From assembly GCA_965261735.1 (NCBI GenBank), contig OZ253470.1:4256001-4320000 (forward strand): DNA of 64,000 bases. The letters are read 5' to 3'. Within the stretch, counting starts at the first letter, position 1. The number at the start of each line of letters is the position of its first letter. Shown here in pieces: positions 25,509-32,896 of the stretch. This stretch comes from Alphaproteobacteria bacterium. Its GTDB lineage: Bacteria; Pseudomonadota; Alphaproteobacteria; SHVV01. Under the pieces are notes generated by a model that ran no database searches, was not told the DNA's origin, and was given only the letters and a program-made list of their open reading frames with translations. Both the position numbers and the translations under genes were made by a program.

Positions 25509-26708
25509 TCACTCCTTGCGCGGCAGAAACAACATCGGCACGAAATAGGCGGTAAACAGCGTGAAGGCGACAAACCAACTGCCGGCGGTTGCCCAGAGCA
25601 GACTTAGAGCGGGCACGACCTCGAAGGCTGCGCGTGTGCAGACCGCCAGCGTAGCGAAACCGTATATCGCGACAACCCATGGTCCAGCGTGGAGGTCGCG
25701 CCCGGTATGGCCGAGAACCGCGCGGGTCATGACGGCCAGGGTCATCGTCCCGATCGCGCCGAGTGTAAGTACATGCAGCGCCAACGGCTCCATCACCCAG
25801 TCTACGAGCATCGAGGCCCCGAGAAGGCCGAGGCCCAATGCAAGCCAGAAGTAGCCGGCATGCAACACAGTCACAAGCGGCTCGGCTGCCGTCCTCCAGC
25901 CCCGCCATCGTGCCAGCCGGACGAGGTTCAATGCCCCTGCTAACGTTAGGAGAATGCCGGAAAGCGGGATAGGCGCCGATCCCACCCAGGCCGCGAGCGC
26001 AACCGCTGTCACGGCGAGCGTCGTTTGGTCGAACCGGCCCATCGGCGCTGTGATATTCGGGCCCGCTCGCCGCTCGAACCAGTTGTGCGTGAAGCTCGGA
26101 ACGATGCGCCCGCCGATCAACGTTATTAACAGCGACATGACGGCGATGGAGAGCCGAACACCCGCCTCTCCCACATGAGCCACGCCCGCCGCGGAGAGAT
26201 GGAACAGCACGTTGGCGGTCAACATCAGTATAAGCCCGGCGAGGACCGGCAGATTGCGCCAGTTGCGGCCCGCAACGATCGCGTTACCGACAAGAACCGA
26301 GAGAACTCCCAGATAGGCAAGATCGGCGACCGCCGTTGGCATTGGTCCGACTGCGCCTCCCCACCAGACGGCACCCCGGCCGCAAAGCCAGATCAAGGCG
26401 AGTGCGCCGAGCGGCCAGCCCCTTACTGGAGGGCGCCCGGTCCAGTTCGGCACCGCGGTCAACACGAAGCCACCGAGCGCCGCCCCGACATACCCGAACA
26501 TCATCTCATGGACGTGCCACATCGTCGCATCGCCCAGCCCGGGATATGAGATCGCCCCCGACCAGATCCCGATCCATAGGGGCACAGACAGCGCAGCCCA
26601 CAGCCCGGCCAGGAAGAAAAGCGGGCGAAAACCCTCTCGAAGAAACTCCGGCCCGGAATAGTGGCGTTGCGGTTCTAGCCGTGTCTGGTTCGTTATTTCT
26701 GCCCCCAT
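25509..26708 (-). CDS. nnrS: NnrS family membrane protein
   Basis: GFRPLFF, WHVHEMMFGY, LTAVPNWTG, IGGRIVPSFT, MTRAVLGHTGR. Confidence 0.93.
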   Translation of the reverse strand: MGAEITNQTRLEPQRHYSGPEFLREGFRPLFFLAGLWAALSVPLWIGIWSGAISYPGLGDATMWHVHEMMFGYVGAALGGFVLTAVPNWTGRPPVRGWPLGALALIWLCGRGAVWWGGAVGPMPTAVADLAYLGVLSVLVGNAIVAGRNWRNLPVLAGLILMLTANVLFHLSAAGVAHVGEAGVRLSIAVMSLLITLIGGRIVPSFTHNWFERRAGPNITAPMGRFDQTTLAVTAVALAAWVGSAPIPLSGILLTLAGALNLVRLARWRGWRTAAEPLVTVLHAGYFWLALGLGLLGASMLVDWVMEPLALHVLTLGAIGTMTLAVMTRAVLGHTGRDLHAGPWVVAIYGFATLAVCTRAAFEVVPALSLLWATAGSWFVAFTLFTAYFVPMLFLPRKE

Positions 26709-26710
26709 GA

Positions 26711-26961
26711 GGGTGTGGGTCTGGTATGGAAAATCTAAGTCATTGATTTAGTGCGTTTTTGTGTCGAGACGAACGGCCGAAAACGGCTATTCGTGACAAT
26801 GGGCCGCTCCAAGGCAGGATTTTGTCACGACGGCAGGGTGGAGCAGGGGAGGTGGGAACGCTCCGCACCGCCAGAGGCGGTACGATGCCGTGTCTCGAAA
26901 CCCAACATCGGGAGCATTGCCATGGCAGTATCCCCGCCTCCGGCGCCTTCGTCCATCGATC
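26711..26961 (+). mobile_element. Left end of the ISKra4-like element (same as 57455..60313)
   Basis: GGGTGTGGGTCTGGTATGG end and MAVSPPPAPSSID start are near-identical to the reverse complement of 58686-58899 plus 60273-60313. Confidence 0.8.
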
Positions 26962-27025
26962 CTTGCCTATCCGGTTTACACCCACACCCACTAGGGCTAG
27001 AATGGGCGCAAACCGGATATAGGGG
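26962..27025 (+). mobile_element. IS1595 type A left-end remnant (~64 bp)
   Basis: CTTGCCTATCCGGTTTAC...AAACCGGATATAGGGG. Confidence 0.85.
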
Positions 27026-27120
27026 ATGAAATAGGTCTGCCCAAAGCTGGACGAGAACATCATCAGCATCCCGAAGCTCAGAAAGCCGCGGTTGCGTAGA
27101 ATGAAATGGAAATAGGTCAC
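27026..27120 (-). pseudogene. MFS transporter N-terminal fragment
   Basis: FILRNRGFLSFGMLMMFSSSFGQTYFI resembles MFS helix 1. Confidence 0.6.
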
Positions 27121-27149
27121 AGGAAGGCGTTGTCATGTATGGACGCCCC

Positions 27150-27387
27150 CGGTGTTGCAAGGGGAAAACTGATTTGAATCGGCGGTAGAGCTTGCAGTCA
27201 TGTATCCGGCCTTTTCGCTGCGGTACGCTGACCGCTGGCCCTGATGGAATCCGAAAGATCGACGCCCAGTCAGACTAACGAGCTTGATGCTCGGACAATG
27301 CCTCGGGTTTGGCCGATCTCGGGTGGAACCCTGTTTCGCCATCAAATCGTCGTCACCCTCGCAATTTGATCCCGGTTTGCCAGCTGG
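27150..27387 (-). ncRNA. Predicted bridge RNA/seekRNA of the IS110 element
   Basis: Non-coding region 3' of the transposase with four segments matching target-left, target-right, donor-left and donor-right in order; exact RNA ends unknown. Confidence 0.75.
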
Positions 27388-28425
27388 CTATGCCGGCGTC
27401 GGTCGGTAGATACGCTCGTACCTGAGCAGTGCCCAGGCGACACGGGCTGCCTTATTGGCCATGGCGACCAGCACCACGTTTGTCGGCCGCCGCGCCAGGA
27501 GCCGGTCGGTCCAGCCAGGCCCCGTGCCCGGCTTGGCGCGGCGCCAGCGCAGCACGCTTCGCGCACCATGCACGAGCAAGCGCCTGATATAGCCATCCCC
27601 GCGCTTCGAGATCCGCCCCAGCCTGTCCTTGCCGCCACTCGAGTGTTGTCGGGGCACGAGACCGAGCCAGGCCGAGAGCTGCCGGCCCGAGCGAAACTGC
27701 GCGCCATCTCCGATCGTCGCGACCAGCGCCGTCGCGGTGATGACACCGACGCCGGGGATCGTCGCAAGCCGGCGGCTCGCCTCGTTGGAGCGGTGCCATG
27801 CCATAAGTGTCGCCTCCAGCTGCTTGATCCGGGCCTGAGCAGAGCGGAGCTGCTCAACCAGAGAGCCAAGCGCCTCGCGTGCCAGAGGCGGCAGTCGCAC
27901 ATCGCCGGGATCTTCGATAATGGCAACCAGTTCCTCCACCTTCGACGCCCCCTGAGCGACGATCAGTCCGAACTCCGCACAGTGGCCGCGCAGCGCATTG
28001 ATCACCATCGTGCGTTGACGGACCAACAGCTCTCGGGCCCGGTGCAGCATCAGAACCGACTGCTGCTCGGCGCTTTTCGCCGGTGCAAAGCGCATCGTCG
28101 GACGCGTCACTGCCTCACAGATCGCTTCCGCATCCGCTGCGTCGTTCTTATTCGTTTTGACGAAGGGACGAACGTATTGAGGCGGAATCAGCTGAACTTT
28201 GTGCCCGTGTGCTTGCAGTTCCCGAGCCCAATAGTGCGCAGAGGCACAGGCTTCCATACCGACAAGACAGGATGGCAATCCGGCGAAGAACGCCAGCACC
28301 TTCTGTTGGTAGCGACCGTAAATTTCCCATTTGTAACGACCCAAAATTTCTCACTTTGGGCTTGTCGCTGAAGGCGTCCCGGGCCGCTCTGTTGGCTTTG
28401 CCAACAGAGCGGGATCGGTGCGCGG

Positions 28426-29448
28426 ATGTACAAATGGGAGACCAGGATGTTGTTGAAGCACTATCTGGACCGGGGTGTCTCGAAGGCGGAGCTGTCGAGG
28501 CGGTTCGGGGTGAACCGTCGGACGATCCACAATTGGGTCGATACCGGCCAACTGGACCGGGATCTGGCGGCCGGTGCGCGAGGGTATTCGCCCCGTCCGC
28601 CGGTGGCCCACAAGCTGGACCCCTACAAGGCGATCATCGACGCCCGTCTTGAGGCGTTCCCGAAGCTGTCGGCGAAGCGGCTTTTCGATGAGGTCCGCGC
28701 TGCGGACTACCCGGGCTGCTACTCTCGCGTGAACGACTACGTGCGGGCGACGCGACCGCGCGAACCGGTTGAATCGCTGGTCCGGTTCGAGACGCCGGCG
28801 GGGCGTCAGGGCCAGGTGGACTTCGGTACGTTCACGCTGCCCTGGGGCCGGCGCCATGCCCTGGTGATCGTCCTCGGCTTCACCCGGCTGCTGTGGCTGC
28901 ACTTCTATACTCGGCAGACCATGCCGGTCCTGATGGAAGGTCTGGAGAGCGCCTTCGACCGGTTCGGCGGGGTTCCGGAGGAGCTGCTGTTCGACCAGAT
29001 GCGCGCCGTGGTGCTGTCCGACGACCGCGGGGCCGGCGGCGGCCTGGTGCTGAACGAGGAGTTTCTGCGGTTCGCCGCGCACTGGGGGTTCATGCCGCGC
29101 TCGTGCCGACCCTATCGGGCCCAGACCAAGGGCAAAGTGGAGCGCCCGATCCGCTACATCCGCGAGAGCTTCTTCTACGGCCGCTCGTTTGCGAATGACA
29201 ACGATCTCAACGAGCAGGCCGTGCGCTGGCTGGAGGGCACAGCCAACGTCCGCCGGCATGCCACGACCGGGGAGCGTCCTGTCGACCGCTTCGAGCGCGA
29301 CGAGCGAGCGGTGCTTCTCCCCTTGGCGAACCATCCCTATCGACGTCTCGGCGTCCGGCATGCTCCGGAGCCCGCGCCGCGGCGACTGCCGGCAACCGTG
29401 AAGGTCGAGCAGCGACCGCTTAGTGTCTATGCGGAGGCGCTGCAATGA
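28426..29448 (+). CDS. istA: IS21 transposase IstA
   Basis: N-terminal HTH, RFETPAGRQGQVDF, FDQM, QTKGKVER. Confidence 0.95.
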   Translation: MYKWETRMLLKHYLDRGVSKAELSRRFGVNRRTIHNWVDTGQLDRDLAAGARGYSPRPPVAHKLDPYKAIIDARLEAFPKLSAKRLFDEVRAADYPGCYSRVNDYVRATRPREPVESLVRFETPAGRQGQVDFGTFTLPWGRRHALVIVLGFTRLLWLHFYTRQTMPVLMEGLESAFDRFGGVPEELLFDQMRAVVLSDDRGAGGGLVLNEEFLRFAAHWGFMPRSCRPYRAQTKGKVERPIRYIRESFFYGRSFANDNDLNEQAVRWLEGTANVRRHATTGERPVDRFERDERAVLLPLANHPYRRLGVRHAPEPAPRRLPATVKVEQRPLSVYAEALQ

Positions 29449-30242
29449 ACGCTCCGGCGCCGGCCCGGCGCGACCGGCTGCGGGCAATGCTGGCGGACCT
29501 CAAGATGCCGGGCGCGCTGGAGGCCGTCGACGGCATCCTCTCGGACGCCGACGGCGGCACGATCTCGGCGGCCGAGGCCATCGAGCAGTTGCTGAACGCC
29601 CAGATCGTGCTGCGCAACAACCGCCGTCTCCAGACCGCCATGCGCTCTTCGCGGCTGCCGGCTGTGAAGACGCTCGATCAGTTCGACTTCGCCTTCCAGC
29701 CCAGCATCAAGCGCGAGCAGATCGAGAGCTTGCACGAGCTCGGCTTCCTGGACCGCGGCGAGAACGTGATCCTGCTCGGCCCACCAGGCGTCGGGAAAAC
29801 GCACTTGGCGATCAGCCTCGCGATCGCGGCGGCCGAGGCCGGCCGGCGCGTCTACTACGGCACGCTCGCGGCGCTGATCGAGTCCCTCACCGAGGCCAAG
29901 GCCGCCGGCAATCTGACCCGGCGGCTGCGCGTGCTCACCCATCCGGCCCTGCTGGTGGTCGACGAGATCGGCTACCTGCCGGTCAACCAGGACGGCGCCG
30001 TGCTCTTCTTCCAGCTCATCAACGCCCGGCACGAGAGGGCGTCGACTGTGCTGACGTCGAACAAGGGTTTCGAGGACTGGGGTGGCGTGCTCGGCGACGA
30101 GGTCATGGCGGCGGCTCTCATCGACCGCCTTGTGCACCACTGCCACATCGTCAACATCCGGGGCAACAGCTACCGGATGAAGGAGCATCAGAACCTGCTG
30201 CAGTCCGGCTCGGATCGACGCAGGAAAAGAGCCGCCGCGTGA
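29445..30242 (+). CDS. istB: IS21 helper ATPase IstB
   Basis: Walker A GPPGVGKT, Walker B LLVVDE, LTSN, DRLVHH. Confidence 0.95.
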   Translation: MNAPAPARRDRLRAMLADLKMPGALEAVDGILSDADGGTISAAEAIEQLLNAQIVLRNNRRLQTAMRSSRLPAVKTLDQFDFAFQPSIKREQIESLHELGFLDRGENVILLGPPGVGKTHLAISLAIAAAEAGRRVYYGTLAALIESLTEAKAAGNLTRRLRVLTHPALLVVDEIGYLPVNQDGAVLFFQLINARHERASTVLTSNKGFEDWGGVLGDEVMAAALIDRLVHHCHIVNIRGNSYRMKEHQNLLQSGSDRRRKRAAA

Positions 30243-30798
30243 TCGCCGGCTCAAACGGAGACAGGAGCGGTGACACCCGCCCGCTGTGGATAACCGGGTT
30301 GTCGCCGCCAGACTCTTGGCGGTCGCTGCGCCAACCCGGTTACCTACAGCTCGACCAAGTCCGACACCCCAAACACCGCGTCTGGGGGTACGACCGAACG
30401 CTCAAAGTGAGAAATATTTCGATCGACAAAAGTGGGAAATTTTCAGTCGCAATTGACACCTTCCCGCGGCGCAGCTTCCGCCGTAGTACCGGTCGTCCCT
30501 CACCATCAGCACCGTGAACCTGGAACACCGTCTTTGCCAGATCAAACCCAATTGTCGTAATATCCATCGTGGACGCTCCCTCTGTCTGGGTTGTTCAACA
30601 CACTCCAGTATGGCTCATCGTGAAGCCGTAGGGGGCTTCCATACCATCAGACGAACTGGATAGGATCTGAAGAACCTGCAAACCAGGCCTCTCAGGCTGC
30701 AAGTTGACGCCACTCGGCCAAGGCGGCGGCTCGGGTTTGTTTGAAAATATCGCGGCGGTTGAGATGGCGTTCGTGGCTGAAGTGGTTATGGATTGAGG

Positions 30799-31903
30799 CT
30801 TGCCTATCCGGTTTACACCCACACCCACTAGGGCTAGAATGGGCGCAACCCGGATATAGGGGAGCGCGCCATGGATGTTCTCGACCGCGCCGATCTCCCA
30901 TTCCCGCATTCGCTACCCGAGTTCCAGCGACTTTTCCCCGATGATGCGGCCTGCGCCGCCTACCTGGAGAAAGCCCGCTGGGGAGACGGCTTTGCCTGCC
31001 CGCACTGCGGCACGGCGGGAGAGCCGTTCCACTTTGAAAACCGCCCTGGCGTCCTGCGCTGCCGCAAGTGCCGCCAGAACACCGGGCTGACGGTGGGAAC
31101 AGTGATGGAGCGTAGCCACACTCCGCTGAACGTCTGGTTCTGGGCCGCTTATCTGGTCGCCAGTCAGACGCCCGGCATGTCCGCCGTGCAGTTTCAGCGG
31201 CAACTTGGTCTTTCGCGCTACGAGACGGCCTTTCAAATTCTCCACAAGCTCCGCTCGGGCATGGTGCGGCCCAACCAAGACAGGATCGGTGGACAGCCCA
31301 AGAACCATGTTGAGATGGACGAAACCTGGGTTGGCGGGCGAACGCGTGGGGAAGGCCGTGGTGTTCACCACAAGGTTCCCGTCTCCTGTGCCATCGAGGT
31401 GCGTCATCGAAAGCCGGGCACCAAGCTCGACAACCGGAAAGACGGACGCTATGCCGGACGCGTTCGGCTCGCCGTCGTGCTCGACCGTAGCGCCGAGTCG
31501 CTCTGTGGGTTCGTCGAGAGCACCGTCGCGCCGCGATCGCTGATCGTTACTGACGATTGGAGCGGCTATGCTGGCCTCGGGAAGCGCGGCTATGAGCACT
31601 TCGCTGTTGCCGAGTGTGGTGATCCAGAGGTTGCCGAGCAATACCTGCCGATCATCCATCTGGTTTTCGCCAACCTGAAGACGTGGCTGATCGGTATCCA
31701 CCACGGCGTTAGCCACCAGCACCTACAAGCCTACCTCAACGAGTTCACCTTCCGCTTCAACAGGCGGTTCTACCCGTTCAACGCCTTCCGCTCATTGCTC
31801 GGCATCGCGGGCGACACCTCTGCTCCAACCTATGCCGAGCTTTACTCGGGAGAGTGGCGGCACCCTACATGTAGCGGTCATGGGCGTTAACCGGATAGGC
31901 AAG
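30799..31903 (+). mobile_element. IS1595-family type A, intact; transposase 30871..31890
   Basis: IRs CTTGCCTATCCGGTT / AACCGGATAGGCAAG; CPHC..CRKC, VEMDET, VTDD, YLNEFTFRFNRR. Confidence 0.95.
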
Positions 31904-32896
31904 GTATGTTCTCAATATGTTCTGTATGAGGGGGTCACGGTTATGGGGTTCAAGGTTGCATCGCGCGTGCGTGGTCTGAACGACGAGGCGTTTCGGGAGG
32001 CCTTCGGCACCAAGGAGCAGTGCCGCGCGGCGCTGGTCCGGCTGCGCTGGCCGGGCGGCTTCGTCTGCCCCTGCTGCGGCCATCGGGAGCATTGCGTGTT
32101 GGCGGGTCGGGGTCTCTATCAATGCAACCGGTGCAAGAAGCAGACATCGCCCACGGCGGGCACGATCTTCCACGCGACCAAGCTGCCGCTGACAGTCTGG
32201 TTTGCCGCCATCCACCTGATCGTGACGGCGAAGAACGGCATCTCGTCGGTGGAACTCGGCCGCCGTCTCGGGGTCAAGCAGCCGACGGCCTGGGCCGTGA
32301 AGCACAAGATCATGGCGGTGATGGCGCGGCGCGAGGGGGAGACGGCGCTTACGGGGCGGGTCGAGATGGACGACGCCTATCTCGGCGGGGTGCGCTCCGG
32401 CGGCAAGCGGGGCCGCGGCGCGGCGGGCAAAACGCCCTTCGTGGCGGCGGTCTCGACCAGTCCCGAGGGGCGCCCGCGCAAGCTGAAGCTGGCGTCGGTC
32501 AAGGGCTTCCGCAAGCGCGAGATCGCGCGCGGCGCCAAGCACTGGCTGGCCCCCGGAGCGGCGGTTGTGACGGACGGCCTGGGCTGCTGGAGCGCACTCG
32601 AAGAAGCCGCCTGCAGCCACCAGGCGATCCGCACCGGGTCGGGCCGCCAGGCGGCCCGCATGGCATCGTTCAAATGGGTGAACACGACGCTCGGCAACAT
32701 CAAAAGCGCGATCACCGGGACTTATCGCAAGCTCGGCCCCGACCATGCCGGACGCTATCTCGCCAGCTTCGCCTGGCGCTACAACCGGCGCTATCAACTC
32801 CAGACAATGATCCCGCGTTTCGTCCATAGCGCCGCACGAAACCAGCCCATGCCCTATCGCCTCCTCATCGCCGGATGACTTTCAGGGATGGGCAGG
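31904..32896 (+). mobile_element. IS1595-family type B, left tip lost; transposase 31943..32878
   Basis: Near-identical to 14866-15859; right IR degenerate (GGATGGGCAGG). Confidence 0.92.

What the first reader, a model, noticed from the sequence alone, without database searches (positions are those of the whole stretch)
27126..30660. IS110 bridge RNA with readable guides, programmed against the terminal IR of an IS6 element
Seen: removing 27136-30649 restores GGCGTTG-TCA-GACGAAC, the end of an IS6 remnant, and the excised circle junction would read ...ATACCA-TCA-TGTAT.... The 3' non-coding region, read on the transposase strand, gives four matches in order: GGCATTGTC (27302-27294; 8/9 to target-left GGCGTTGTC), GTTAGTCTGAC (27279-27269; 10/11 complementary to target-right GTCAGACGAAC), ATTCCATCA (27250-27242; 8/9 to donor-left ATACCATCA) and ATACATGA (27205-27198; 8/8 complementary to donor-right TCATGTAT). 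Established: IS110/IS1111 recombinases use a non-coding bridge/seek RNA with left-target, right-target, left-donor and right-donor guides, and IS4321/IS5075 target transposon IRs. Inference: this RNA-guided recombinase has an ideal target GGCATTGTCAGACTAAC, long guides on both arms and a TCA-centred core, making it an IS6-specific hyperparasite. The gene can be rebuilt by deleting the IS21 and one CCTTC.
Basis: partly seen in the sequence, partly recalled or inferred. Interest (0 to 1): 0.88.

Follow-up and report, generated by a model that had tools for sequence, protein, structure and literature searches.

The report
RNA-guided IS1111 element targeting IS6 ends
This is a dead copy of an IS1111-type insertion sequence whose own non-coding RNA carries short guide stretches that match the terminal repeat of an IS6 element, so it is an ordinary member of a known RNA-guided family with a target class I did not find described.

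Summary
Window 27136-30649 (minus strand) is a 1354-bp IS1111-group element of the IS110 family. An IS21 (28304-30458, CCTTC duplicated) splits it, and it sits 10 bp inside the terminal repeat of an IS6 remnant. All four proposed guide segments lie where stated in the 252-nt region downstream of the transposase gene. Genome-wide, the four occur together in order at 9 places, all copies of this element. In relatives of 56-99% transposase identity, both target guides track the flanking DNA: 0 of 10000 permutations reach the observed match. The segment matching the right end tracks seven end variants. A covariation-supported fold puts the two target guides in an internal loop around a hairpin. 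The left-end guide is instead paired with an upstream UGAUGG, so the donor part is a multi-loop, not a second simple internal loop. In the clade of at least 73% identity, an IS6 transposase gene lies just upstream in 16 of 29 insertions, against 0 of 31 in more distant clades. Verdict: a genuine bridge/seek RNA system and a new member of a known kind. The IS6-end specialisation appears undocumented in what I could search. Transcription and activity are unproven, and this copy is dead.

The parts
27126..27135 (+). Outer 10 bp of the IS6 terminal inverted repeat (GGCGTTGTCA). TCA at 27133-27135 is the sequence shared with the element's other junction.
   Evidence: The same right-flank motif abuts 9 of 10 right ends in the genome.
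27136..30649 (-). IS1111-group IS110-family element, 1354 bp without the IS21 insertion.
   Evidence: Six full-length copies elsewhere in the genome are 93.1-98.4% identical.
27136..27150 (-). Right end: 3-nt extension (ACA on the minus strand) and 12-bp subterminal inverted repeat (GGGGGCGTCCAT on the minus strand).
27136..27387 (-). 252-nt non-coding region downstream of the transposase gene, encoding the predicted bridge/long seek RNA.
   Evidence: Fold z-score -3.89. Consensus structure 93.5% paired against 34-41% when slid.
27155..27163 (-). 3' strand of closing helix P0 (CCCUUGCAA). It overlaps TTGCAA, a possible -35 of a promoter formed at the circle junction.
   Evidence: helix 1: 81% paired, 2 pairs with compensatory change. 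The promoter reading is inference from the end sequences.
27197..27205 (-). Right-end donor guide AUACAUGA(C), the same sense as right end plus core. The final C matches the first base of the target's right half.
   Evidence: 8/8 to the right end in nearly all relatives, across 7 end variants. The two bases after TG match the target side in 82/88 and the left end in 31/88.
27206..27241 (-). Hairpin P6/P7 between the two donor-matching segments.
   Evidence: helices 6 and 7: 99% and 98% paired, 2 pairs with compensatory change.
27242..27250 (-). Left-end donor guide candidate AUUCCAUCA, complementary to TGATGGTAT at the left end (8/9). Its 3' six bases are predicted to pair with 27339-27344.
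   Evidence: P1: 99.5% paired, compensatory changes in 12 and 15 of 32 sequences.
27269..27279 (-). Target guide 2 (B guide) GUUAGUCUGAC, the same sense as left flank plus core.
   Evidence: Own-flank match 7.86/10 against 5.50/10 for other elements' flanks. 3' side of the internal loop.
27280..27293 (-). Hairpin P5 inside the target-binding loop.
   Evidence: helix 5: 3 pairs with compensatory change.
27294..27302 (-). Target guide 1 (T guide) GGCAUUGUC, complementary to the top strand of the right flank.
   Evidence: Own-flank match 7.64/9 against 4.86/9. 5' side of the internal loop.
27339..27344 (-). UGAUGG, the 5' strand of helix P1. It is identical to the first six bases of the element's left end.
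27388..28303 (-). Transposase gene, codon 37 to the stop (PF01548 part and PF02371).
28304..30458 (+). IS21 insertion (istA 28426-29448, istB 29445-30242). The 5-bp CCTTC duplication lies at 28299-28303 and 30459-30463.
30464..30567 (-). Transposase gene, first 34 codons and 2 nt of the next (MDITTIGFDLAK...).
30631..30649 (-). Left end: 7-nt extension TGATGGT and a subterminal repeat carrying one substitution (ATGGAAGCCCCC).
30650..30798 (-). Inner part of the IS6 terminal repeat and the last ~33 codons of an IS6 transposase gene, cut off by an IS1595 element at 30799.
   Evidence: Blastn to annotated IS6 family transposase genes, 75-78%. Tblastn aa 200-232, 70%, E 4e-8. IS1595 ends.

Best explanation
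The region is one copy of an IS1111-group insertion sequence (IS110 family), now inactivated. It moves by RNA-guided recombination.

Inferred mechanism, by homology with ISEc11, ISPa11, ISKpn4 and IS621:
- The 252-nt region after the transposase gene is transcribed.
- It folds into a target-binding internal loop and a donor-matching multi-loop, and binds the DEDD transposase.
- Guide 1 (GGCAUUGUC) pairs with the top strand to the right of the crossover.
- Guide 2 (GUUAGUCUGAC) pairs with the bottom strand to its left.
- Together they specify GGCATTGTCAGACTAAC, which is bases 1-17 of the terminal repeat of one IS6 subgroup. Exchange occurs at TG(A), repeat bases 8-10.
- AUACAUGA(C) reads the element's right end.
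- AUUCCAUCA is complementary to the 7-nt left extension.

Shown here: the anatomy, the site and orientation specificity in 10 genomic copies, guide-flank covariation across relatives, covariation-supported RNA helices, and adjacency to IS6 transposase genes.

Inferred: that the RNA is made, binds the protein and directs strand exchange, and that insertion disables the IS6 end.
For: Family and group:
- NF033542 scores 349 bits. PF01548 and PF02371 are found. The C-terminal domain matches the IS621 transposase structure 8wt6 at E 4e-11.
- The element has a 12-13-bp subterminal repeat, 7-nt and 3-nt extensions, a 339-aa transposase and the motif GLVPRQHSSG.

Specificity in this genome:
- 9 of 10 right ends abut TGACA(A/G)(T/C)G(C/T)C. 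5 of the 10 are the exact complement of guide 1.
- 9 of 12 left junctions match at least 5 of the 7 guide-2 bases before TGA.

Covariation in relatives:
- 28 distinct guide pairs were tested. Own flanks match 7.64/9 and 7.86/10. Other elements' flanks match 4.86/9 and 5.50/10. 0 of 10000 permutations reach the observed total.
- Paired changes include GGCGUUGUC with GGCGTTGTC, GGCACUGUC with GGCACTGTC, UAAACUGUC with TAAACTGTC and AUAACGUAC with ATAACGTAC.

Structure, on an alignment not fitted to it:
- 93.5% of cells are paired against 34-41% when slid. The covariation score is 0.294 against 0.05-0.08. 15 pairs show changes on both sides.
- Guides 1 and 2 are the two sides of the loop between P4 and P5.

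IS6 as the target:
- Searches identify the window remnant as IS6.
- 16 of 29 insertions in the clade of at least 73% identity have an IS6 transposase gene upstream. In 9 the gap is 47-53 bp. In the more distant clades the count is 0 of 31.
- L037 holds a 785-bp IS6 interior with an outward-facing copy in each terminal repeat.

Published behaviour of the family:
- IS1111-type seekRNAs are essential, co-purify with the transposase and carry the T match before the B match (PMC11187229, sections 8-10 and 14 read).
Against: - No direct evidence that the RNA exists. Rfam has no matching family: 3 hits at E 1.6-5.4, none in the non-coding region.
- Metatranscriptome contigs from 2 studies cover the element. 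Contigs cannot show transcription, strand or ends, and no circle-junction joint was seen.
- The left-end guide is paired in the consensus fold (P1). Its third base never matches the left end in the main clade.
- Three of 12 left junctions (copies E, F, G) match guide 2 at only 1-3 of 7 bases. These are probably later rearrangements, but I did not show that.
- Copy D's variant guide (GUUAAUCUGAC) fits its own flank no better than the common guide does.
- Several relatives fit poorly. L071 and L075 match guide 2 at 6/10.
- Only the window copy, and weakly copy D, keep any IS6 coding remnant beside them in this genome.
Confidence: 0.9

Rival explanations
1. The target is not IS6 as such. The element recognises a short generic motif, and its association with IS6 ends reflects insertion sequences piling up in the same regions.
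For: In this genome 9 of 10 copies have no IS6 coding sequence within 1.5 kb of the left flank when searched with this genome's own four IS6 types. With the L107 and L108 proteins added, copy D also shows a weak fragment. Thirteen of 29 insertions in the close clade show no IS6 gene upstream.
Against: - The gap to the IS6 gene is fixed at 47-49 bp in the same orientation, or 53 bp in the opposite orientation. That is the geometry of insertion at base 10 of the right or left repeat, pointing outward.
- The IS6 in L037 is occupied at both ends.
- The motif has the G1, G2 and G7 that define IS6/IS26 terminal repeats, and A at position 10 as in their clade III (PMC6807381, passages).
- Sister clades with other guides sit beside ordinary genes.
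- Guide 2 differs between elements found in different IS6 subgroups...UCUGA with L108-like IS6...GUGA with the 234-aa types.
Confidence: 0.06
2. The matches act at the DNA level. They would be recombination sites or a fossil of a captured IS6 end within the element, recognised by protein, with no RNA guide.
For: On the plus strand the non-coding region reads like a permuted IS6 repeat: GTCAGACTAAC, a hairpin, then GACAATGCC. No RNA evidence was obtained.
Against: - A fossil would not keep tracking each relative's own flanks and ends.
- It would not keep helices through compensatory changes, including G-U pairs that exist only in RNA. For example, pair 109/167 is G-C in 21 and G-U in 11 sequences.
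- Experiments on family members show the RNA is essential and reprogrammable.
Confidence: 0.03
3. The four matches are chance similarities in a GC-rich repeat.
For: Each segment is short. The 9-mer at 8/9 has 3250 hits genome-wide.
Against: All four in order within 252 nt occur at 9 places, and all 9 are copies of this element. The permutation test gives 0 of 10000.
Confidence: 0.01

Closest known systems
IS4321 / IS5075 (IS1111 group; published target: terminal repeats of Tn21-family transposons)
   Same: Same group and same lifestyle, namely insertion at a fixed base inside another mobile element's terminal repeat. In an annotated IS4321 (L109) I read by eye the same layout. A segment matches the complement of the right flank at 8/9. 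A hairpin follows. Then a segment matches the left flank running into the right flank at 8/9. Then come a UGAUGA/UCAUCA pair and GGAUAGAU matching the right end.
   Different: The transposase is only 41.5-41.8% identical. The host element is an IS6-family insertion sequence, not a Tn3-family transposon. I saw the published target only as the title of Partridge and Hall 2003 in reference lists. The paper is not held. I did not verify that the L109 flank is a Tn21-type repeat.
ISEc11, ISPa11, ISKpn4 seekRNAs (Siddiquee et al. 2024, PMC11187229)
   Same: IS1111 type, with a transposase of about 339 aa and the RNA encoded downstream. The T match precedes the B match around a stem, and the matches overlap at the insertion point. 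Natural retargeting occurs between relatives.
   Different: Those elements target a short linear site, REP sequences or attC sites. Their 82-96-nt short RNA suffices, and the role of the 145-170-nt long form is open. Here the evidence is comparative only.
IS621 bridge RNA (Durrant et al. 2024, PMC11208160)
   Same: A two-part RNA reading both strands of target and donor. The C-terminal domain is homologous to the solved IS621 transposase.
   Different: IS621 encodes its RNA upstream with the opposite guide order, has two simple internal loops and a CT core. Here the donor part is a multi-loop. Durrant et al. note that as common in IS1111 orthologues (passage).

Membership tests
IS110 family, IS1111 group | DEDD/RuvC-like N-terminal domain plus PF02371 C-terminal domain | tested here: met
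   PF01548 and PF02371. NF033542 scores 349 bits against a cut-off of 140 on the intact copy.
IS110 family, IS1111 group | Transposase of 330-350 aa with a GL-P----S(T)G motif (PMC11187229, section 6) | tested here: met
   339 aa. GLVPRQHSSG is read in the translation.
IS110 family, IS1111 group | Subterminal inverted repeats of about 11-13 bp, with terminal extensions of 7 (or 6) bp on the left and 3 bp on the right (PMC11187229, section 4) | tested here: met
   TGATGGT-ATGGACGCCCCC ... GGGGGCGTCCAT-ACA in the genomic copies. The repeat core is conserved in relatives.
IS110 family, IS1111 group | Long non-coding region downstream of the transposase gene | tested here: met
   252 nt downstream against about 80 nt upstream.
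IS110 family, IS1111 group | One preferred site and one orientation | tested here: met
   9 of 10 right ends and 9 of 12 left junctions fit one motif. The element always points outward from IS6.
IS110 family, IS1111 group | Circular intermediate with a junction promoter | not testable with these tools
   No junction joint in the contigs laid. TTGCAA, then 17 nt, then CATGAT would form on joining the ends. This is my reading and is inference.
Bridge RNA / seekRNA | Two target-matching segments, one per strand, on the two sides of an internal loop around a hairpin | tested here: met
Bridge RNA / seekRNA | Guides covary with insertion sites across relatives | tested here: met
   0 of 10000 permutations reach the observed match.
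Bridge RNA / seekRNA | Donor-binding segments for both element ends in an accessible loop | tested here: inconclusive
   The right-end segment is unpaired and matches 8/8 across 7 end variants. The left-end segment is complementary to the left extension, but 6 of its 9 bases are paired in P1.
Bridge RNA / seekRNA | The RNA is transcribed and bound by the transposase | not testable with these tools
   Contigs from RNA libraries of 2 studies cover the region. That does not show transcription.
IS6/IS26 family (the target element) | Terminal repeat starting GG with G at position 7 (PMC6807381) | tested here: met
   GGCGTTGTCAGAC. A at position 10 as in clade III.
IS6/IS26 family (the target element) | DDE transposase with the PF13610 domain | tested here: not met
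   In the window only the last ~33 codons remain and no Pfam hit is found, so it is a remnant and not an element. Complete IS6 genes sit at the same distance in relatives.

The most novel reading that the evidence does not exclude
A whole clade of RNA-guided IS1111 elements (at least 73% transposase identity, in marine and soil Alphaproteobacteria) lives as a specialist parasite of IS6/IS26-family terminal repeats. It follows different IS6 subgroups by mutating guide 2. It can occupy both ends of one IS6.

The long RNA also carries two features not yet explained for this group:
- A conserved helix in which a copy of the element's own left end (UGAUGG) masks the left-end guide. This may be a donor-mimic switch.
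- A right-end guide whose last two bases read the target side. The same RNA would then recognise the integrated right junction, which is relevant to excision.
Probability: 0.3. Interest if true: 0.6.

Novelty: new member of a known kind. Interest (0 to 1): 0.4.

Why it matters
The mechanism is known, so the finding is mainly a clean, fully readable natural example. It gives target, donor, guides and fold, with many independent insertions to check them.

Three points add value:
- It adds IS6-family terminal repeats to the short list of mobile-element ends that IS1111 elements home to. The family that includes IS26 drives much gene shuffling.
- The family alignment gives comparative support for a donor-reading part of the long IS1111 RNA. 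The experimental paper left the role of that RNA open.
- The masked left-end guide and the target-reading tail of the right-end guide are concrete, testable hypotheses about how these elements tell insertion from excision.

Tried and rejected
- Rfam scan of 26500-31500 at E up to 10. Three weak hits appeared elsewhere and none in the non-coding region, so no curated family applies.
- Single-sequence MFE fold. It pairs UGAUGG with a downstream CGCCGAUUCA stretch. I did not test that pairing on the alignment, where that region is poorly conserved. I used the RNAalifold consensus and my own pair counts instead.
- Translation of 30650-30800 in one frame. This was the wrong frame and is uninformative. 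The IS6 C-terminus was established by tblastn.
- Search for IS6 genes beside the genome's own copies. Only the window copy gave a hit with the genome's four IS6 types. With the L107 and L108 proteins added, copy D also shows a fragment.
- Pattern search for the ideal target. There was no exact site. Two sites have one mismatch and four have two, against 2 for the reversed control. Site 434708 is an unoccupied end of the same IS6 subgroup.
- Sequencing runs. Contigs only. They show no circle junction, no RNA ends and no strand, so they are not evidence of expression either way.
- Sister clades as possible parasites of other elements. Their left flanks hold ordinary genes: an M20 peptidase, a PAS-LuxR regulator and an ABC substrate-binding protein. 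The idea was rejected for the two loci examined.
- Literature for an IS1111 element targeting IS6 ends. I made four full-text searches. A 'find' for IS110 and IS1111 in two IS6 family papers gave 0 occurrences in each (PMC7986276, PMC6807381). Nothing was found. The target logos for more than 300 elements in the source data of PMC11187229, and Supplementary Table 5 of PMC11208160, could already contain such an element.


Full report
**What is in the window**

One search shows GGCGTTGTCA at 27126-27135, then an inserted block at 27136-30649, then GACGAACTGG. The block is read on the minus strand.
- It begins TGATGGT-ATGGAAGCCCCC and ends GGGGGCGTCCAT-ACA.
- It encodes the two halves of an IS110-family transposase (PF01548 and PF02371).
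- An IS21 at 28304-30458 splits the gene within codons 36-37. IS21 carries IstA and IstB (IstB E 9.7e-81) and is flanked by a CCTTC duplication.
- The 252 nt between the stop codon (27388-27390) and the right end are non-coding.
- Beyond the left end, 30650-30798 holds the inner part of a terminal repeat and the last ~33 codons of an IS6 transposase gene. An IS1595 element at 30799-31904 cuts it off.

**The observation**

Singly they are common in the genome: 3250, 42, 408 and 116 hits on both strands. All four in order within 252 nt occur at 9 places. All 9 are copies of this element (against the coordinates). Chance is excluded.

**Copies in the same genome**

The genome (one contig, 5.03 Mb) holds six full-length 1354-bp copies at 93.1-98.4% identity and about eight partial or interrupted ones.

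An intact copy (L006) encodes a 339-aa protein.
- It scores 349 bits on NF033542 'IS110 family RNA-guided transposase' against a cut-off of 140.
- Its C-terminal domain matches the solved IS621 transposase at E 4e-11.

Right ends, read in transposase orientation:
- 9 of 10 abut TGACA(A/G)(T/C)G(C/T)C.
- 5 of the 10 are the exact complement of guide 1.
- The tenth (copy E) abuts an internal part of another copy.

Left junctions:
- 3 of 12 read GTTAGTC before TGA.
- 3 differ from that at one base, and 3 at two.
- Copies E, F and G match only 1-3 of 7 bases.

The guides are identical in 8 of 9 copies aligned. Copy D has GUUAAUCUGAC, which fits its own flank no better. Within this genome there is specificity but no covariation.

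**Family membership**

By the criteria in PMC11187229 (sections 4 and 6 read) this is an IS1111-group element.
- The subterminal inverted repeat is 12-13 bp.
- The terminal extensions are 7 nt on the left and 3 nt on the right.
- The long non-coding region is downstream.
- The transposase falls within 330-350 aa.
- A GL-P----SG motif is present (GLVPRQHSSG).

The guide order also fits. The segment complementary to the top strand comes first, as that paper reports for IS1111-type seekRNAs. IS110-type RNAs have the reverse order.

**Relatives and covariation**

A scan of one genome per species returned 80 loci with 56-99% transposase identity.

How the data set was built:
- From these loci and L006 I extracted 64 insertions distinct by flank.
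- 59 had both flanks complete. This followed dropping L103, whose right end was mis-assigned, and four insertions cut by contig ends.
- L046 was also dropped because its left end is replaced, which left 58.
- The non-coding regions align well with MAFFT.

Target guides (28 distinct guide-1/guide-2 pairs, each with its first insertion):
- Guide 1 matches its own right flank at 7.64 of 9 on average. Guide 2 matches its own left flank at 7.86 of 10.
- The values for other elements' flanks are 4.86 and 5.50.
- 0 of 10000 permutations reach the observed total, with or without wobble.
- Examples of paired change are GGCGUUGUC with GGCGTTGTC (L050), GGCACUGUC with GGCACTGTC (L052), UAAACUGUC with TAAACTGTC (Hoeflea), CAAACCGUC with CAAACCGTC (L070) and AUAACGUAC with ATAACGTAC (L078).
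- For guide 2, examples are GUUAAUGUGA (L051) and the series GCUUUUGA, GCUUCUGA, GCUUGUGA in L076, L085 and L082.
- Misfits exist. L071 and L075 match guide 2 at 6/10. Below 62% identity the register of guide 1 shifts by two bases.

Donor guides:
- The right-end guide matches the element's right end 8/8 in nearly all cases, through seven variants of that end.

**Fold**

I aligned 32 of the 41 distinct non-coding regions, leaving out nine near-duplicates. RNAalifold and my own pair counts agree.
- 93.5% of cells are paired, against 34-41% when the partners are slid.
- The covariation score is 0.294 against 0.05-0.08.
- 15 pairs change on both sides.
- The alignment was not fitted to the structure.

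Layout of the fold:
- Helix P4 closes an internal loop.
- The loop's 5' side is guide 1 and its 3' side is guide 2, around hairpin P5. This is the target-binding loop.
- The two donor-matching segments flank hairpin P6/P7.
- The right-end guide is unpaired.
- The left-end guide's six 3' bases (CCAUCA) pair with an upstream UGAUGG in helix P1. P1 is 99.5% paired, with compensatory changes in 12 and 15 of 32 sequences.

The P1 partner is a copy of the element's own left end. In 12 sequences the pair G:C became A:U while the DNA end kept its G. The RNA-RNA pairing is therefore conserved in its own right.

The left-end guide still tracks the end outside P1, AU with ..AT and AC with ..GT, in most but not all groups. 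In a 51%-identical Klebsiella plasmid element its complement matches the left end at 8/9 (read by eye).

The donor part is thus a multi-loop. Durrant et al. remark on this for many IS1111 orthologues (passage).

**Core**

Among 58 insertions the triplets at the left and right junctions are:
- TGA/TGA in 38
- TGA/TGG in 13
- TGA/GGA in 5
- TGA/TGC in 1
- TGA/TGT in 1

The sequence shared by both junctions is therefore TG in most relatives. In this element the third base happens to be A in both donor and target.

The two bases after TG in the right-end guide match the target's right half in 82 of 88 positions. They match the left end in 31 of 88. That guide reads the integrated right junction. 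I note a possible link with excision, which in ISEc11 needs the correct flanks (section 14). This link is inference.

**The target is an IS6 end**

Evidence from the window and this genome:
- The window remnant matches annotated IS6 family transposase genes of Sulfitobacter and Mesorhizobium plasmids at 75-78% DNA identity.
- Those elements end GGTGCTGTCAGACGAAT... and GGTGCTGTCAGACCAAT....
- The motif has the G1, G2 and G7 that define IS6/IS26 terminal repeats, and A at position 10 as in their clade III (passages of PMC6807381).
- The targeted IS6 subgroup survives in this genome only as fragments.
- The 17 IS6 transposase loci with full-length frames, of other subgroups, end ...TCACGTTAAC...ACACGTTAAG...TCACGGTAAC or ...TGTTGCAAAG where a repeat was found. 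By the coordinates, none lies next to a copy.

Evidence from relatives:
- In the clade of at least 73% identity, an IS6 transposase gene lies just upstream in 16 of 29 insertions.
- In 9 of them the gap is 47-49 bp in the same orientation, or 53 bp in the opposite orientation. That is the geometry of insertion at base 10 of the right or left repeat, pointing outward.
- None of 31 insertions in more distant clades has one.
- L037 carries a 785-bp IS6 interior with a copy in each repeat.
- Elements found in 234-aa-type IS6 carry ...GUGA in guide 2. Those in the L108-like subgroup carry ...UCUGA. This is natural retargeting between IS6 subgroups.
- Two sister-clade loci sit beside ordinary genes.

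**Positive control**

In an annotated IS4321 (L109, 41.8% identical) I read the same arrangement by eye.
- A segment matches the complement of the right flank at 8/9.
- A hairpin follows.
- Then comes a segment matching the left flank running into the right flank at 8/9.

I know its published target only from the paper's title.

**What is not shown**

Nothing here proves that the RNA is made or where it starts and ends.
- Rfam has no model for it.
- Contigs from metatranscriptome libraries of two studies cover the element, including the non-coding region. Such contigs cannot show transcription, and no circle junction appeared.
- A junction promoter (TTGCAA, 17 nt, CATGAT) is my reading of the ends and is inference.
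- That insertion disables the IS6 end is also inference.

**State of the window copy**

The window copy is dead. IS21 splits the gene, and the left repeat has a substitution shared by none of the 9 other copies examined, which have GGACGCC (GGGCGCC in copy D). Its two halves are otherwise colinear with intact copies.

**Novelty**

The mechanism and the group are known. Bridge RNAs are predicted in 93% of catalogued IS1111 elements. Homing to another element's terminal repeat is known for IS4321 and IS5075.

I found no description of IS1111 elements that home to IS6 repeats. This rests on four full-text searches and two IS6 family papers with no mention of IS110 or IS1111. ISfinder, the 2003 survey and all supplements were out of reach.

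I file it as a new member of a known kind. The masked left-end guide and the target-reading tail of the right-end guide are the parts most worth an experiment.

Noticed in passing
window 26955-27026 and 30792-31904: A complete IS1595 element (30799-31904, transposase 30871-31890) cuts off the IS6 remnant. A solo 72-nt copy of its left end (94% identical) lies at 26955-27026 in the same orientation. The two bracket the IS6/IS1111/IS21 nest, which suggests a rearrangement between IS1595 ends.
   Followed up: partly
G000:C1:3095510-3098957 (copy G): A second copy of the IS1111 element is split by the same IS21 (same ends TGTTGGTAGCGACC...CAATTGA) at a different position, near element base 1065. 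Copy H is split by a different ~1.5-kb element with CGCGATTATCAACTTGACACG inverted ends and an 8-bp duplication.
   Followed up: no
G000:C1:2942630-2944361 (copies E and E') and the left flank of copy G: A full copy is joined head-on to the last 378 bp of another copy, whose own right end abuts TGACAGTGCC. Copies E and G share a left flank (...CCCTGATACATT(C/T)C) that matches guide 2 at only 1-2 of 7 bases. Origin unexplained.
   Followed up: no
L037:276-3772: One IS6 (interior 1633-2417, transposase on the minus strand) carries an outward-facing IS1111 copy in each terminal repeat.
   Followed up: yes
L063-L070, L089 (Hoeflea MAGs): A 68%-identical sister clade inserts at ...AAT TT(C/T)GG-TGA / (T/G)GAC(A/G)GTTTACTTAATTC, with matching guides. 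In five copies of one genome the right junction reads GGA where the guide has UGA. The target looks like a dispersed intergenic repeat.
   Followed up: partly
L076, L082, L085-L088, L095-L104 (57% clade): The target is a palindromic, REP-like site (ATGTCCGCT..TGA / TGGCAC..AGCGGACAT). Single-base differences in guide 2 (UUUUGA, UUCUGA, UUGUGA) match single-base differences in the sites.
   Followed up: partly
run X5 on L006 position 1632 (table 7): One metatranscriptome contig leaves the element's non-coding region right beside guide 2 and continues with GGCATTGTCACGTTAAC..., the end of a 234-aa-type IS6. An IS6 may have inserted into, or recombined with, the guide region in that sample. It is a single contig.
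   Followed up: no
G000:C1:434708-434724: An unoccupied end of the targeted IS6 subgroup (GCCGTTGTCAGACTAAC, followed by sequence like the window remnant). It matches guide 2 fully and differs from guide 1 at two bases.
   Followed up: partly
window 25509-26708 (minus strand): An NnrS family gene (E 9.5e-106) lies just left of the insertion-sequence nest.
   Followed up: no
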